Positions 33,793-39,700 of a DNA stretch of 64,000 bases are shown one piece after another. This DNA is from Escherichia coli (GTDB lineage Bacteria; Pseudomonadota; Gammaproteobacteria; Enterobacterales; Enterobacteriaceae), in assembly GCF_044647545.1 (NCBI RefSeq), contig NZ_CP172818.1; one strand, given 5' to 3'. Position 1 is the first letter of the stretch. Each line of letters opens with the position of its first letter. The position numbers are program-made.

Positions 33793-36700
33793 TCAGCACC
33801 AAACCATTTTTCGGAAAGGGCTTGCAGAGTGCCGTCTTTTTGCATTTCCGCAATTGCATCATTCACCGCCTTCAGCAGGTCTTCATTTCCTTTACGCAGC
33901 GCCACACCAGACTCCTGACGGGAGAATGCTTCACCGGTTACTGCCAGCGTATCGTTGGTTTTCTTCACCAGATCCAGCGCCGCCAGACGGTCAACGAGGA
34001 TCGCATCGATACGGCCTACGCGCAGATCCTGATATTTGGTCGGGTCATCATCATAGGTACGCACATCGACGCCCTGAACATTCTGACGCAGCCACTCTTC
34101 ATAGTTGGTGCCCAGACCGACACCCACTTTTTTGCCTTTCAGATCAGCAGCTGTTTTAATGGTGCCTTCGTTACCTTTTTTCACCAGCGCCTGAATACCG
34201 GAAATGGTGTACGGGGTAGAGAAATCGTATTTTTTCTTGCGCTCGTCAGAAATGGTGACCTGATTAATCACCACATCAATGCGTTTAGAGTCCAGCGACG
34301 CCAGCATACCGTCCCATTTGGTCGGTTTTAGTGACGCCTCAACGCCAAGATGTTTTGCCAGCTGTTGGGCAAATTCCACTTCAAAACCGGTTAATTTGCC
34401 GCCATCCCCCTGAAAACTGAACGGCGGATAAGTTCCTTCCAGCCCTACCAGCAGCGTGCCGCGCTCTTTGACTTTATTAAGCAGACCTTCATCTGCAAAA
34501 CTTTTAACGCTCATACCCGCAACCAGCGCCACGGCCATCACACCCATCAATGCCTGACGTCCCAGATGTGCTAATTTCATATTCACCCCGAATGTTGTTA
34601 TGTCTGTTTGCAGTGTAGAGCCATTGTTTGTAAACACAAAAACAACTCCGCTACATCTTATTCTTATTTAATATATATCAGAAGCAGGCAGGCTGGAGGA
34701 TTTCTGCACAAGTCCGGTACACGTTTGACGCTGATAGTGTTGATACTTCCGTAACGCGATGCGGTAATTGTTGGTGCTGGTGGAGGGCAGCCACGGGGCG
34801 AGGATTTCATCAAGGAAACCGTCCTGCAGCTGATCGAAGGAAATATTTTGCTCGTGTAGATGATTCCCCAAACGGCGCAGACGAACGACATATTCACGCA
34901 CCGTACCAGGGCTCATTTCAGTTTGCTCAAAAAGAAATTGCTTAAAGCCGATAATATCGAAAAAATCACTCTGCGTTTTGCAATGTAAATCACCGCAAAA
35001 TCGGCACAATGCCGCCCATGATTGTTGTTCCACTTGCCAGCCGTTTTCATCAAGCAGCGTGTCCAGGCGGGAAATCTCGATTTTATTCACTATCTTGCCG
35101 TCGCGAACGAGGGTAATGCGATCGAGTAATTTACGGCAATGCGCGCAATGGGTCTGGCTGTGTTTAAAGTCTTTAAGATAGCGGCTTAATGGCCGTCTTT
35201 TCAGGTGCTGCACCATCATTAAGAACTCCTGGTAGTCAAAATTAAAGTGCGGCATTTACTGACGTTATAACTTACCCAGTTTAGTGCGTAACCGTTTAAT
35301 GGCCTGACTGTGTAACTGACTGACCCGCGATTCCCCGACCTCCAGCACCGCGCCAATCTCTTTGAGATTCAGCTCTTCCTGGTAATAGAGGGTTAATACC
35401 AGTTTTTCGCGCTCCGGCAACGTTTCGATAGCTTCCATCACCCGCTGGCGCAGATTACTGTCCAGCAGTTGTTGTAGCGGGTTTTCTCGCTGATGATCAT
35501 CAGTAACCAGTTCAATGCTATCGCCATGCTCTTCGCGCCACTCATCGTAGGAGAAGAGCTGGCTGTTATTGGTGTCGAGCAGCATTTGACGATAATCGGC
35601 AATATCGATCCCTAAACGTTCCGCAACCTCAGTTTCCGTGGCGTTGCGGCCAAGTTCCTGCTCCAGTTGCCCTATTGCCTGTGCCACTTCACGCGCGTTG
35701 CGTCGCACGCTGCGCGGCACCCAGTCACGGCTGCGAAGTTCATCCAGCATAGCGCCACGGATACGCTGCACTGCGTAAGTTGTAAATGCCGTTCCTTGTA
35801 GGGCGTCATAGCGTTCGACGGCATTGAGTAACCCAATGCCGCCCGCCTGTAGCAGATCGTCAAGTTCCACGCTCGCGGGCAGTCGAACCTGCAGGCGCAA
35901 TGCTTCGTGACGCACCAGCGGGACATAACGCTGCCACAGCGAGTGTTTATCCATTACACCTTCAGCGGTATAGAGTGAATTCACGATAAACAGCCCTGCG
36001 TTATATGAGTTATCGGCATGATTATCCGTTTCTGCAGGGTTTTTAATCGGACGATTAGTGGGTGAAATGAGGGGTTATTTGGGGGTTACGCAAAAAAGTA
36101 AAAAACCCCGCCGGAGCGGGTTTGAGAGGCATTCAGGCGATTAACCCTGCAGCAGAGACAGAACCTGCTGCGGTACCTGGTTGGCTTTTGCCAGCACGGA
36201 GTTGCCTGCCTGCTGGATGATCTGCGCTTTCGACATATTGGACACTTCGGTCGCATAGTCGGCGTCCTGAATACGGGACTGCGCTTCGGACAGGTTGGTA
36301 GTGGTGTTGTTCAGGTTGGTGACTGCGGAATCCAGACGGTTTTGAACGGCACCGAGGGAGGAGCGGAATTTGTCGATCTGGCTGATAGCGTCGTCAAGAG
36401 CTGCCAGCGGATCTGATGTTGATTCTGCTTTGCTAGTCGTATCCGTTGTTAACTTACCATCGGAACCTTTGTAGACCAGTTTACCGGCAGCCGCATCCTC
36501 AGTAGTTGTGATACTTCCATCAGCTTGTGCATCATAAGTTGGCGGAGTATCACTGGACTGCCATTGCTCATATAAGCGGTGTCTGCAGCAGCAGAACCTG
36601 TTGTTACGCTATAAGTCTTAGCACCTACAGTGGCAGTATAAGTGTCATTTTTTACTGCATTTGCAAATGTATTGGCATCAATGGACATTGATGCACCATA

Positions 36701-39700
36701 AACGTTGTACCGTCACTGGTGAATGTTCCTTTATCAGTTTGGATGGTCGCGGCTTTAGCACCAGTAGCAGTAGCAAGTTTAGCCAAAGTAGCTTGTGTAT
36801 CACCACCAGCATTATTTTTAGTTAAGTTACCGGTAGCATCCATATAAAGTACTGCGCCATCATCAGCAGCAGTTAAATTACCGGATTTATCGATGTTTAC
36901 ATCTTGATCTTTACAGCCAATTGCAACTGTAGCTTTAGTCGTATCTCCGGCCTGAGGATTGAGGAAAGCAGCCAGATTAGCGCTGGAAATATCATCAGAA
37001 GCGGCGGAATATGAATTAGTGTCTTTATTGTAGGTATAGGTTACAGCAGCGGGCATTATTACAAAACCAACATCGGCGCTGGTCTAACTTTATTTCCATC
37101 TGTGCCAGCAACAGCATTTAGAATATCTACGCTACTTGCTACAGCCGATTTGTCAGTATATTGAGTTACACCAACAGTTCCCCCTGGTGCCGCCGCAGCT
37201 GTGAATCCAGACATATCTTTCAGGGTTGCTGCCGTATTAGCCGTTTTACCCTTGCCGTTCACATTAAACCCATCAAGCCCCAGCGTATCAGAGTCAATTT
37301 TCTTCAGATCAATAGTAATCGTTTCGCCATCGTTCGCGCCGACCTGAATTTTCATCGAGCCATCTTTTGACAGTACGTTCACGCCGTTGAACTGGGTCTG
37401 GCCGGATACGCGGTCAATTTCATCAAGACGGGATTTGATTTCGTCCTGAATGGAGTCCAGGTCAGAGGTGGAGTTAGTTCCGGTCGTCGCCTGAACCGTC
37501 AGTTCACGAATACGCTGTAAGTTGTTGTTGATTTCGGACAGCGCGCCTTCGGTGGTCTGTGCAACAGAAATACCGTCGTTGGCGTTACGTGCAGCCTGAG
37601 TCAGGCCTTTAATATTAGAAGTAAAACGGTTAGCAATCGCCTGACCTGCGGCGTCATCCTTCGCGCTGTTAATACGCAAGCCAGAAGACAGACGCTCGAT
37701 AGAACTCGACAGCGCAGACTGGTTCTTGTTGATATTATTTTGAGTGATCAGCGAGAGGCTGTTGGTATTAATGACTTGTGCCATGATTCGTTATCCTATA
37801 TTGCAAGTCGTTGATTACGTATTGGGTTTCCACCCGTCGGCTCAATCGCCGTCAACCCTGTTATCGTCTGTCGTAAAACAACCTTTAGAATTTTTTTCAC
37901 AAACAGCCATTTTTTGTTAGTCGCCGAAATACTCTTTTCTCTGCCCCTTATTCCCGCTATTAAAAAAAACAATTAAACGTAAACTTTGCGCAATTCAGGC
38001 CGATAACCCCGGTATTCGTTTTACGTGTCGAAAGATAAAAGGAAATCGCATGGCAAGTATTTCATCGCTGGGAGTCGGGTCAGGCCTGGATTTAAGTTCA
38101 ATCCTTGATAGCCTCACCGCCGCGCAAAAAGCGACGCTAACCCCTATTTCAAATCAGCAATCGTCGTTTACCGCTAAACTTAGCGCCTACGGTACGCTGA
38201 AAAGCGCGCTGACGACTTTCCAGACCGCCAATACTGCATTGTCTAAAGCCGATCTTTTTTCCGCCACCAGCACCACCAGCAGCACCACCGCGTTCAGTGC
38301 CACCACCGCGGGTAACGCCATCGCCGGGAAATACACCATCAGCGTCACCCATCTGGCGCAGGCGCAAACCCTGACCACGCGCACCACCAGAGATGATACG
38401 AAAACGGCGATCGCCACCAGCGACAGCAAACTCACCCTTCAACAAGGCGGCGACAAAGAGCCGATCACCATTGATATCAGCGCGGCTAACTCGTCGTTAA
38501 GCGGGATCCGTGATGCCATCAACAACGCAAAAGCGGGCGTAAGTGCGAGCATCATTAACGTGGGTAACGGTGAATATCGTCTGTCAGTCACATCAAATGA
38601 CACCGGCCTTGATAATGCGATGACACTCTCGGTCAGCGGTAATGATGCGCTACAAAGTTTTATGGGCTATGACGCCAGTGCCAGTAGCAACGGTATGGAG
38701 GTCTCGGTCGCCGCCCAGAATGCGCAGCTGACGGTCAACAACGTCGCCATTGAGAACAGCAGCAACACCATCAGCGACGCGCTGGAAAACATCACCCTGA
38801 ACCTGAACGATGTCACCACGGGCAACCAGACGCTAACCATCACTCAGGACACCTCCAAAGCGCAAACGGCGATTAAAGACTGGGTGAATGCCTATAACTC
38901 GCTAATAGATACCTTCAGCAGCCTGACCAAATACACCGCCGTAGATGCGGGAGCTGATAGCCAGAGTTCAAGCAATGGCGCACTGCTCGGCGACTCCACG
39001 CTGCGGACGATTCAGACGCAGTTGAAATCGATGCTGAGTAATACCGTCAGTTCTTCCAACTATAAAACGCTGGCGCAGATTGGTATCACGACCGATCCCA
39101 GCGATGGCAAACTGGAACTGGATGCCGACAAACTCACCGCTGCATTGAAAAAAGATGCCAGCGGCGTAGGTGCATTGATTGTTGGCGATGGTAAAAAAAC
39201 CGGCATCACAACCACCATCGGCAGCAACCTGACCAGTTGGCTTTCGACAACAGGCATTATTAAAGCCGCTACCGATGGCGTTAGTAAGACCCTGAATAAG
39301 TTAACTAAAGACTACAACGCCGCCAGCGATCGCATTGATGCGCAGGTCGCGCGCTACAAAGAACAATTTACCCAACTGGACGTTTTAATGACCTCGTTAA
39401 ACAGCACCAGCAGCTACTTAACGCAGCAGTTCGAAAACAACAGTAATTCCAAGTAATCAATATTCATCGGGAGACAGGTCATGTACACGGCAAAAGGCAC
39501 CCAGGCCTATGCACAAATTGGCGTCGAAAGCGCCGTAATGAGCGCCAGCCAGCAGCAGCTGGTCACCATGCTATTTGATGGAGTGCTGAGCGCACTGGTT
39601 AGAGCGCGCCTGTTTATGCAGGACAACAATCAGCAAGGCAAAGGCGTCTCTTTGTCAAAAGCGATCAACATTATTGAGAACGGACTGCGGGTGAGTCTTG

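What the first reader, a model, noticed from the sequence alone, without database searches (positions are those of the whole stretch)
36141..37784. fliC (flagellin) carries three independent 1-nt deletions while all other flagellar and chemotaxis genes are intact
Flagellin-like sequence runs through three reading frames. Frame 0 from the ATG at 37784 ends ...[13 protein letters not shown], then hits a stop at 37059. It continues as PAAVTYTYNKDTNSY...TDKGTFTSDGTTF in a second frame (break near 37085), then as [43 protein letters not shown] in a third (break near 36699), then returns to frame 0 from about 36558 as [14 protein letters not shown]...QQVLSLLQG to the stop at 36141. Each break is consistent with a single-base deletion, none in a homopolymer, and the three sum to -3 so the conserved D0/D1 C-terminus is back in the start frame. 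The master operon, sigma28, hook, motor, export and chemotaxis genes, and the sigma28 promoters, all look intact. The predicted phenotype is a non-flagellated cell that still expresses the whole regulon. The reconstructed length (about 548 aa) and central domain differ from K-12 FliC (498 aa, H48 as I recall it), so the strain is probably not K-12.
Basis: partly seen in the sequence, partly recalled or inferred. Interest (0 to 1): 0.7.

Follow-up and report, generated by a model that had tools for sequence, protein, structure and literature searches.

The report
Broken H6 flagellin gene, probably sequence error
The flagellin gene in this E. coli window really is split by three one-base deletions, but these sit in a dense 1.2 kb patch of about 30 changes seen in no other strain, so the patch is more likely faulty sequence than a naturally decayed gene.

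Summary
fliC (36141-37784, minus strand) is an H6-type flagellin gene of 1644 nt; intact alleles have 1647 nt. It is cut into four reading-frame pieces by three net 1-nt deletions, at about 37085, 36700 and 36556.

The reading "three independent deletions in an otherwise intact regulon" is only partly supported. Against its near-identical relative, E. coli MS6198, the window has 6 small differences in 62.5 kb. It has 10-11 micro-lesions within 36096-37275: 22 substitutions in tight, often tandem clusters, three CDS deletions, and 6-nt and 1-nt deletions in the fliC terminator region. About 0.11 would be expected (P ~1e-18).

All 25 differing CDS positions are private to the window: nine distinct H6-family alleles carry the reference base at each one. 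No donor or local template was found. Lesions coincide with every TTAC and AAT(T)GG in the patch, and one site is also miscalled in an independent, error-ridden assembly of the same clone.

Two other unnatural, private stretches lie in the window: a run of 44 A, and a 173-nt G-poor insertion upstream of flhDC.

Most likely (~0.6) this is a low-fidelity stretch of the sequence record. If real, the cell would be a non-flagellate H- variant, which is a known kind of strain. Reads or resequencing would decide.

The parts
37861..37887 (-). sigma-28 (class 3) promoter match for fliC, TAAA-N15-GACGATAA; identical to MS6198
   Evidence: Pattern search, (3 matches in the window, 0.02 expected). No difference from MS6198 here.
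37059..37784 (-). fliC piece 1: N-terminal D0/D1 and the start of the variable domain. 241 aa; the last 8 are out of frame. The first 509 nt are identical to MS6198.
   Evidence: NCBIfam NF005953 aligns residues 1-233 to profile positions 1-229 at 463.8 bits, below the 619 cut-off.
37274..37275 (-). Lesion c1: tandem substitution CTG AAT -> CTT GAT (synonymous + N171D), at an AATGG.
37247..37248 (-). Lesion c2: tandem substitution GGG GAA -> GGT AAA (synonymous + E180K), inside a G5 run.
37080..37085 (-). Lesion c3: first 1-nt deletion plus 2 substitutions (GTTACAACTAGC -> GTTA-GACCAGC). Frameshift at codon 234.
37053..37061 (-). Lesion c4: 7 substitutions under one alignment; under BLAST's alignment two inserted bases, two deleted bases and two mismatches, net 0 (GGTACACCAGCC -> GTAATAATGCCC). 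It supplies the TAA TAA that ends piece 1 and the ATG that opens piece 2.
36652..37056 (-). fliC piece 2 (variable domain, second frame), 134 aa.
   Evidence: NF005953 profile positions 236-339, 62.5 bits.
36913..36924 (-). Lesion c5: 4 substitutions (ACA ATT GGT GGC -> GCA ATT GGC TGT; T288A, G291C) at TTACAATTGG.
   Evidence: An independent error-prone assembly (L012) has a G>A miscall inside this site.
36699..36700 (-). Lesion c6: second 1-nt deletion (TTT GAT GG -> TTT -AT GG), codon 363. The only isolated lesion.
36449..36688 (-). fliC piece 3 (variable domain, third frame), 79 aa.
36555..36560 (-). Lesion c7: third 1-nt deletion plus 3 substitutions (GGG GTT CTC -> GGC AGT C-C), at AATGGGG. 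Returns the frame to that of the start codon.
36533..36534 (-). Lesion c8: tandem substitution TAC TAT -> TAT GAT (synonymous + Y419D), at a TTAC.
36141..36557 (-). fliC piece 4: C-terminal D1/D0 in the original frame. The last 392 nt are identical to MS6198. There is no ATG/GTG/TTG in this frame before 36245.
   Evidence: NF005953 profile positions 420-548, 241.8 bits.
36096..36121 (-). fliC terminator / fliA upstream region: a 6-nt deletion (ACAATTGGC -> AC...) just after the T-run, and a 1-nt deletion in the C4 arm of the terminator stem. A hairpin of 5 G-C pairs plus T-run remains.

Best explanation
The locus is the H6-type fliC of an E. coli clone almost identical to strain MS6198. As written it is unreadable: three net -1 frameshifts, with stops in the shifted frames. 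The lesion pattern is not that of a gene that decayed in nature. It is a 1.18 kb patch (36096-37275) of dense, complex, private micro-errors in an otherwise near-perfect sequence. I think it most likely that this patch is low-fidelity sequence in the record. Examples would be a stretch carried by an unpolished or poorly supported long-read consensus or gap fill, or a stretch of otherwise non-biological origin. On this view the organism's real fliC is the ordinary intact 1647-nt H6 allele. Shown: the lesions, their confinement to the patch, their privacy, their association with sequence context, and the other junk-like stretches in the window. Inferred: that the cause is technical. No reads or quality values are available to me.
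For: (1) Density. Outside the three anomalous stretches the window differs from MS6198 at 6 positions in 62,535 aligned bases: 4 SNPs and 2 single-base indels, none breaking a gene. Inside 36096-37275 there are 10-11 lesion clusters (22 substitutions, 3 CDS deletions, and 6-nt and 1-nt intergenic deletions). The expectation is 0.11; Poisson P is about 1e-18 for 11 events.
(2) Privacy. At all 25 differing CDS positions, nine distinct H6-family alleles spanning 94-97% identity carry the MS6198 base. No genome among 5,426 complete E. coli matches the gene better than 98.6%, or the variable region better than 97.1%. A 46-mer spanning two lesions is absent from JGI metagenome contigs. The two longest ORF fragments are absent from a catalogue of 153 billion gene positions.
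(3) Unnatural spectrum. There are 12 transitions and 10 transversions. Nearly all changes are in runs of 2-7 adjacent bases. Two of the three deletions are embedded in substitution clusters, and several lesions alter G5/G4/C4 run lengths.
(4) Context dependence within the patch. All 4 TTAC and all 4 AAT(T)GG sites inside the patch are hit, while the same words outside the patch are untouched. An independent assembly of the same clone (L012, GCA_052953255.1) has errors that are otherwise homopolymer deletions. One of its only two substitutions falls inside lesion c5, CAATTG[G>A]TGG.
(5) The window holds two more private, biologically odd stretches. One is a degenerate copy of the cheZ-flhB intergenic region followed by 44 A (1039-1150); its best match in any E. 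coli is about 85%. The other is a 173-nt insertion with only 5 G upstream of flhD (13307-13479). It has no match in E. coli genomes or plasmids by BLAST, and one exact word from it was absent from each of the GTDB representative genomes and the JGI metagenomes.
Against: No read-level or quality data are available, so the technical cause is inferred. I cannot name the platform or pipeline. Identical words did not give identical miscalls (TTACA became TTA-G, TTGCA, or was deleted), which is unlike a strictly deterministic base-calling error. There is no obvious reason why fliC, which is not repeated, should be poorly supported when its neighbours are perfect. All five tandem double substitutions sit at a codon position 3 / position 1 boundary (post hoc P = 0.004), and a frame-blind error process does not predict this. 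Absence from gene catalogues is weak evidence, because a pipeline that annotates fliC as a pseudogene records no protein.
Confidence: 0.6

Rival explanations
1. The lesions are real and arose in one localized burst (a 'mutation shower'). For example, a single episode of error-prone repair synthesis across about 1.2 kb of fliC and its terminator inactivated the filament gene of an otherwise intact H6 clone. The cell would build hook-basal bodies, export FlgM and express class 3 genes. It would make only a 241-aa N-terminal flagellin fragment that lacks the C-terminal D1/D0 needed for FliS binding and polymerization, so it would be non-flagellate (H-).
For: The lesions are sharply confined to one short tract, with long perfect stretches on both sides. 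-1 frameshifts and run-length changes in G/C runs are among them. The association with TTAC and AAT(T)GG could reflect polymerase hotspots. Loss of flagellin is plausibly favoured in a host, since flagellin is a TLR5 ligand and an antibody target (my own knowledge). All other motility genes in the window are intact.
Against: About 2.5% divergence over 1.2 kb is far denser than the spontaneous mutation clusters I know of in bacteria. Complex 2-7 nt replacements are not the known signature of Pol IV or Pol V, as far as I know. The burst would have to coincide with two unrelated odd stretches elsewhere in the window. No intermediate or sister allele was found.
Confidence: 0.2
2. This is ordinary stepwise pseudogene decay: three independent spontaneous 1-nt deletions, plus substitutions, accumulated after motility became dispensable.
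For: The gene is broken and its neighbours are intact. Non-motile E. coli and Shigella lineages with inactivated flagellar genes are well known (my own knowledge).
Against: The flanking 62.5 kb shows only 6 differences from MS6198, so there has been almost no time for neutral decay. The expected number of events in the patch is 0.11 against at least 10 observed. The clustered, tandem, transversion-rich spectrum is not neutral drift. The terminator region is hit while the first 509 and last 392 nt of the CDS are untouched.
Confidence: 0.04
3. This is a mosaic allele: short-patch recombination or gene conversion from a divergent flagellin allele, or templated changes copied from nearby repeats.
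For: fliC is a known recombination hotspot. The window's left flank (20000-36000) and right flank have different best matches in the database because of island content.
Against: None of the variant bases occurs in nine H6-family alleles. The longest matches to the variant words elsewhere in the window are 9-12 nt, which is chance level. Sequence between the clusters is 100% the MS6198 allele. A donor would not supply frameshifts flanked by perfect identity.
Confidence: 0.03
4. The sequence was deliberately engineered or is synthetic. For example, it could be a manipulated strain or a computationally altered or generated record, which would also account for the G-poor 173-nt insert and the A44 run.
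For: The 173-nt insert is nearly G-free and contains overlapping TTCGAA/GAATTC sites. The c4 lesion reads TAATAATG, a stop-stop-start. The tandem changes are phased with codons. The 1039-1150 junction looks like a blend of the island-free and island-bearing alleles.
Against: No match to any plasmid or vector. Single-base deletions serve no design purpose. No selectable marker or scar sequence is present.
Confidence: 0.1

Closest known systems
H6 flagellin gene fliC of E. coli (e.g. EPEC E2348/69 O127:H6, WP_000079695.1; MS6198 allele WP_000079731.1)
   Same: Same locus between fliD and fliA, and the same 548-codon architecture. The repaired window protein is 538/548 aa identical to the MS6198 allele, which is 540/548 identical to E2348/69. 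The repaired protein scores 766 bits on NF005953, above the 619 cut-off.
   Different: The window copy has three frameshifts, 10 private amino-acid changes and terminator deletions. All 233 complete genomes that match the window's variable region (97.1% identity or less), and the nine alleles examined base by base, lack these lesions.
Non-motile (H- / NM) E. coli and Shigella lineages with inactivated flagellar genes (my own knowledge: the flhC 12-bp deletion in sorbitol-fermenting O157:H-; cryptic or defective fli/flh genes in Shigella, Tominaga et al. 1994)
   Same: If real, the outcome is the same: loss of the filament in a lineage that keeps most of the regulon.
   Different: Those cases involve single lesions, IS insertions or long-term decay spread over many genes. 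None is a 2.5%-dense patch of complex private changes in one gene of an otherwise unchanged clone.
Consensus errors in long-read or hybrid assemblies (indel-rich, dependent on sequence context, patchy where polishing fails)
   Same: Deletion bias, changes in run length, dependence on context, restriction to patches, and co-occurring low-complexity junk (A44, A/C-rich insert). A same-clone assembly with obvious homopolymer errors has a miscall at one of the same sites.
   Different: This cannot be verified without reads. The multi-base replacements are more complex than typical residual errors, and the rest of the window is essentially error-free.
Mutation showers / transient localized hypermutation (Drake 2007 and related work; my own knowledge)
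   Same: Many mutations are confined to a short tract on one molecule.
   Different: As far as I know, reported showers are orders of magnitude less dense and are dominated by single-base changes.

Membership tests
FliC/FljB family flagellin (NCBIfam NF005953) | N-terminal D0/D1 region (Flagellin_N) | tested here: met
   Piece 1 aligns residues 1-233 to profile positions 1-229, E = 1.4e-138. The first 509 nt are identical to the intact MS6198 gene.
FliC/FljB family flagellin (NCBIfam NF005953) | C-terminal D1/D0 region (Flagellin_C) joined to the N-terminus in one continuous ORF | tested here: not met
   The C-terminal 138 codons match profile positions 420-548, but three frame changes and stop codons separate them from the start codon.
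FliC/FljB family flagellin (NCBIfam NF005953) | Whole-protein score at or above the curated cut-off (619 bits) | tested here: not met
   The fragments score 463.8, 62.5 and 241.8 bits, and the fourth has no hit. Only the protein repaired in silico scores 766.3. As written this is a flagellin pseudogene, not a flagellin gene.
H6 H-antigen allele group | Variable central domain matching an H6 reference strain | tested here: met
   The variable region is 96.2% identical in nucleotides to E2348/69 O127:H6 and 97.1% to the MS6198 group. MS6198 and E2348/69 FliC are 540/548 aa identical. Serological reactivity cannot be tested here.
   0.11 events expected against 10-11 observed; P about 1e-18.
Recombinant / mosaic fliC allele | Variant bases shared with a donor allele | tested here: not met
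   All nine comparison alleles carry the reference base at all 25 positions. Best database identity is 98.6%.
Template-switch / quasi-palindrome templated mutation | The new sequence is present nearby in direct or inverted orientation | tested here: not met
   The longest matches elsewhere in the 64 kb are 9-12 nt, as expected by chance.
Diversity-generating retroelement target | Adenine-specific substitutions relative to a template repeat, with a nearby reverse transcriptase | tested here: not met
   Mutated reference bases are G, A, T and C alike. No template copy is present. Gene content equals the annotated MS6198 region, which has no reverse transcriptase.
Sequence-record artefact (low-fidelity consensus patch) | Lesions absent from the raw reads or from independent resequencing | not testable with these tools
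   Only indirect support: privacy, patchiness, context dependence, and co-occurring junk stretches.

The most novel reading that the evidence does not exclude
The patch is real: a single, sharply localized hypermutation burst of about 30 base changes in 1.18 kb, biased to TTAC and AAT(T)GG contexts. It struck the antigenic flagellin gene of a clinical E. coli clone, abolished filament production and left the rest of the regulon untouched. This would be a bacterial event, kataegis-like in its density, at an immune-exposed locus.
Probability: 0.12. Interest if true: 0.6.

Novelty: not a real feature. Interest (0 to 1): 0.15.

Why it matters
If the patch is an artefact, the lesson is practical. 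The strain is an ordinary H6 E. coli, the predicted non-flagellate phenotype is spurious, and this record should not be used for H-typing or pseudogene counts until it is checked. That caution includes the A44 run and the insertion upstream of flhDC. If the patch is real, the phenotype (an H- variant caused by loss of fliC) is a known kind. The way it arose, a very dense and context-biased mutation cluster limited to one surface-antigen gene, would be unusual and worth following up as evidence for localized hypermutation in bacteria.

Tried and rejected
1. Looked for the source genome or any sister carrying the lesions. No complete E. coli genome matches better than 98.6%. Exact look-ups of the 241-aa and 134-aa fragments found nothing. 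A scan of JGI metagenomes with a lesion-spanning 46-mer found nothing. The DcyD look-up returned only the common allele, in many genomes. The same-clone locus L007 has an intact 548-aa FliC identical to that of MS6198.

2. Recombination from another H6-family allele is rejected.

3. Local templated mutation is rejected.

4. Looked for a methylation-motif explanation. No Dam or Dcm site is consistently at the lesions, and the words that are hit inside the patch are untouched outside it. A genome-wide systematic error is therefore rejected. Only a patch-restricted, context-dependent process fits.

5. Origin of the 173-nt G-poor insertion. There is no match in E. coli genomes or plasmids. Exact words from it were absent from GTDB representative genomes and JGI metagenomes. 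It is not a base-collapsed copy of nearby sequence and has no internal repeats. Its origin remains unexplained.

6. Translational coupling at TAATAATG, giving a 'split flagellin', was considered and dropped. It would not rescue the two later frameshifts, and piece 4 has no start codon.

7. A literature search for fliC frameshift pseudogenes in E. coli found nothing specific to H6 or to this clone.

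
Full report
WHAT IS THERE

The minus strand of 36141-37784 carries a flagellin gene, between fliD (38050-39456, plus strand) and fliA (35265-35984, minus strand).
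- 37059-37784: 241 aa.
- 36652-37056: 134 aa.
- 36449-36688: 79 aa.
- A C-terminal stretch back in the starting frame, running to the stop at 36141. That frame has no start codon before 36245.

The best match among 5,426 complete E. coli genomes is 98.6% over the whole gene. It belongs to a group of strains (MS6198, ECONIH1, FDAARGOS_497 and others) in which the gene is an intact 1647-nt "FliC/FljB family flagellin".

Global alignment to MS6198 gives 1644 against 1647 nt, with single-base gaps at window 37085, 36700 and 36556.

The allele is H6-type. MS6198 FliC is 540/548 aa identical to FliC of E2348/69 (O127:H6). The window's variable region is 96.2% identical in nucleotides to E2348/69. 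With the three bases restored, the protein scores 766 bits on NCBIfam NF005953 (cut-off 619). No fragment alone reaches the cut-off.

The same alignment shows 22 substitutions. Nearly all are in runs of 2-7 adjacent bases:
- CTG AAT -> CTT GAT
- GGG GAA -> GGT AAA
- GTT ACA ACT AGC -> GTT A-G ACC AGC
- GGT ACA CCA GCC -> GTA ATA ATG CCC
- ACA ATT GGT GGC -> GCA ATT GGC TGT
- GGG GTT CTC -> GGC AGT C-C
- TAC TAT -> TAT GAT

Two of the three deletions sit inside such clusters. Downstream of the stop codon, the terminator stem has lost one C of a C4 run, and six bases (AATTGG) are missing just after the T-run (36096-36121). A terminator-like hairpin remains.

THE BACKGROUND IS ALMOST DIFFERENCE-FREE

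I aligned the whole window to MS6198. Three anomalous stretches and two islands that MS6198 has and the window lacks were set aside. The remaining 62,535 aligned bases differ at six positions:
- 1188, intergenic.
- 14454, synonymous in otsA.
- 16731, an A8 -> A7 run change, intergenic.
- 25207, synonymous in yecA.
- 33146, DcyD V177A, where the window carries the common allele.
- 45388, a 1-nt deletion, intergenic.

At that rate, 0.11 events are expected in the 1,180 bp from 36096 to 37275. Ten or eleven separate lesion clusters are observed, giving Poisson P of about 1e-18. The first 509 nt and the last 392 nt of the CDS are identical to MS6198. This is not the signature of independent spontaneous mutations or of gradual pseudogene decay.

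ARE THE VARIANTS BORROWED?

I fetched eight further H6-family alleles covering the full identity range of the 233 genomes that match the variable region: E2348/69, NGF1, 7/2, PSUO2, NT1W25, EBJ003, GN02050 and MSB1_8B.
- At every one of the 25 differing CDS positions, all nine alleles (these eight plus MS6198) carry the MS6198 base. The window's states are therefore private, and the positions are otherwise invariant.
- No word of 13 nt or more spanning a lesion occurs elsewhere in the window on either strand. Templated mutation and local gene conversion are thus unsupported.
- A 46-mer spanning two lesions is absent from JGI metagenome contigs.
- The two longest ORF fragments are absent from the gene catalogue. 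This last point is weak evidence, because annotated pseudogenes leave no protein record.

CONTEXT DEPENDENCE

Within the patch, all four TTAC words and all four AAT(T)GG words coincide with lesions. The three TTAC words in the unaffected first 500 nt of the gene, and many copies elsewhere in the window, are intact. TACAATTGG occurs only twice in 67 kb of MS6198, and both copies are altered in the window.

L012 (GCA_052953255.1) is an independent assembly of the same clone. Its 13 indel differences from a clean sister are all homopolymer deletions. One of its only two substitutions lies inside lesion c5: CAATTG[G>A]TGG. A process that is both restricted to a patch and dependent on context fits low-accuracy consensus better than mutation in a cell. 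The identical words did not, however, give identical miscalls.

OTHER ODD STRETCHES IN THE SAME WINDOW

(a) 1039-1150, between flhB and cheZ. The window follows MS6198 perfectly up to 1038. Next comes a degraded version of the common intergenic sequence; the query 1020-1106, which also includes 19 flanking bases identical to MS6198, matches no complete E. coli genome at better than about 85%. Then comes a run of 44 A. It rejoins MS6198 at the right-hand edge of a 2.4 kb dgt island that MS6198 carries and the window lacks.

(b) 13307-13479, about 300 nt upstream of the flhD start codon. This is a 173-nt insertion composed of A78 C55 T35 G5. BLAST found no match in complete E. coli genomes or in plasmids, and one exact word from it was absent from each of the GTDB representative genomes and the JGI metagenomes. 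It is not a base-collapsed copy of nearby DNA.

Both stretches are private, look non-biological, and lie at positions where E. coli strains differ structurally. So does the fliC variable domain. Three such patches in an otherwise 99.99% identical 64 kb point to a problem with the record at hard-to-resolve loci.

MOST LIKELY EXPLANATION

I put about 0.6 on the fliC patch being low-fidelity sequence. This could be an unpolished long-read bridge, a poor gap fill, or some other non-biological origin. On that view the organism carries the normal intact H6 allele.

The main weaknesses of this explanation are:
- I have no reads.
- I cannot say why a non-repeated gene would be poorly supported.
- All five tandem double substitutions fall on a codon position 3 / position 1 boundary (post hoc P = 0.004), which a frame-blind error process does not predict.

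RIVALS

- A genuine localized burst of error-prone synthesis (0.2). This would explain the sharp confinement and the -1 frameshifts. It would need a density and complexity beyond what I know to be reported, and it would have to coincide with the two other odd stretches.
It fails the rate test.
- A mosaic or templated origin (0.03). It fails the donor tests.
- A deliberately engineered or synthetic record (0.1). This is suggested by the G-poor insert with overlapping TTCGAA/GAATTC sites, by the TAATAATG in lesion c4, and by the hybrid look of the 1039-1150 junction. There is no vector match and no design logic for single-base deletions.

CONSEQUENCES IF THE LESIONS WERE REAL (inference from established flagellar biology)

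The sigma-28 promoter of fliC (37861-37887), its leader and its first 233 codons are intact. A 241-aa N-terminal fragment would therefore be made. It could probably be exported, but it lacks the C-terminal D1/D0 helices needed for FliS binding and for polymerization.

flhDC, motAB, cheAWRBYZ, tar, tap, fliA, fliZ, fliDST and fliE-R encode the same proteins as in MS6198 (lengths). Hook-basal bodies should therefore be completed, FlgM exported and class 3 genes expressed. The cell would be non-flagellate (H-).

- The flg operons (hook, rod, rings), flhA and flhE are not in the window.
- The 173-nt insertion lies in the flhDC regulatory region.
- The 6-nt deletion lies 113 nt upstream of the fliA start codon.

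COMPARISON WITH WHAT IS KNOWN, AND NOVELTY

A fliC-inactivated, non-motile E. coli would be a known kind of variant. The allele is ordinary H6. The only unusual aspect is the lesion pattern, and its best explanation is technical. I therefore classify the finding as not a real feature, with low interest (0.15). I keep a 0.12 chance that it records a true localized hypermutation event, which would merit about 0.6.

Noticed in passing
window 1039-1150: Between the flhB start and the cheZ end lies a degraded copy of the usual intergenic/REP-like sequence; the query 1020-1106 matches no complete E. coli genome at better than about 85%. It is followed by a run of 44 A (1107-1150). This sits exactly where MS6198 carries a 2.4 kb island (dgt-like dGTPase plus a hypothetical gene). 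It looks like junk bridging sequence rather than biology.
   Followed up: partly
window 13307-13479: A 173-nt insertion about 300 nt upstream of the flhD start codon, at ...ATTACTTAA|CATAAATG.... Its composition is A78 C55 T35 G5, and it contains TTCGAATTC. BLAST found no match in 5,426 E. coli genomes or in plasmids, and one exact word from it was absent from each of GTDB representative genomes and JGI metagenomes. The flhDC upstream region is a known IS hotspot, but this is not an IS. Its origin is unexplained.
   Followed up: partly
window 25942-26066 (next to the tRNA match at 26014-26097): Between yecA and the tRNA cluster, MS6198 carries a ~14.5 kb island (type I restriction-modification system, DUF262 protein, M48 peptidase, IS3 remnant) flanked by a 125-bp direct repeat. 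The window has a single copy of the repeat and no island, which is a clean empty site.
   Followed up: partly
window 36096-36098, 113 nt upstream of the fliA start at 35984: The 6-nt deletion after the fliC terminator lies in the fliC-fliA intergenic region and could touch the upstream edge of the fliA class 2 promoter / FlhDC box. Not analysed further. It is part of the same suspect patch.
   Followed up: no
L012 (GCA_052953255.1, JBQMUZ010000001.1) positions 1886-3531: A public assembly of the same clone has fliC, fliD and tcyJ split by homopolymer deletions. Its 13 indel differences from a clean sister in 13 kb are all in A/T/G runs. It is an evident error-prone assembly, and one of its only two substitutions falls inside the window's lesion c5.
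   Followed up: partly
window 45388 and 45703-46830: A 1-nt deletion relative to all MS6198-clone genomes lies just downstream of a DUF5503 pseudogene. The pseudogene and an integrase remnant between yedL and fliE are shared with MS6198.
   Followed up: no
window 7551-7628 (+) and 59383-59469 (-): Rfam matches to the sRNAs C0465 (between tar and cheW) and DsrA, as expected for E. coli. A sigma-28 promoter match for tar is at 7535-7561.
   Followed up: no
window 33146: The window's DcyD has A177, the widespread allele, while MS6198 has V177. The window is therefore not a direct descendant of MS6198 itself, but of the same clone. L007 (GCA_032333615.2) shares A177 and has an intact FliC.
   Followed up: yes
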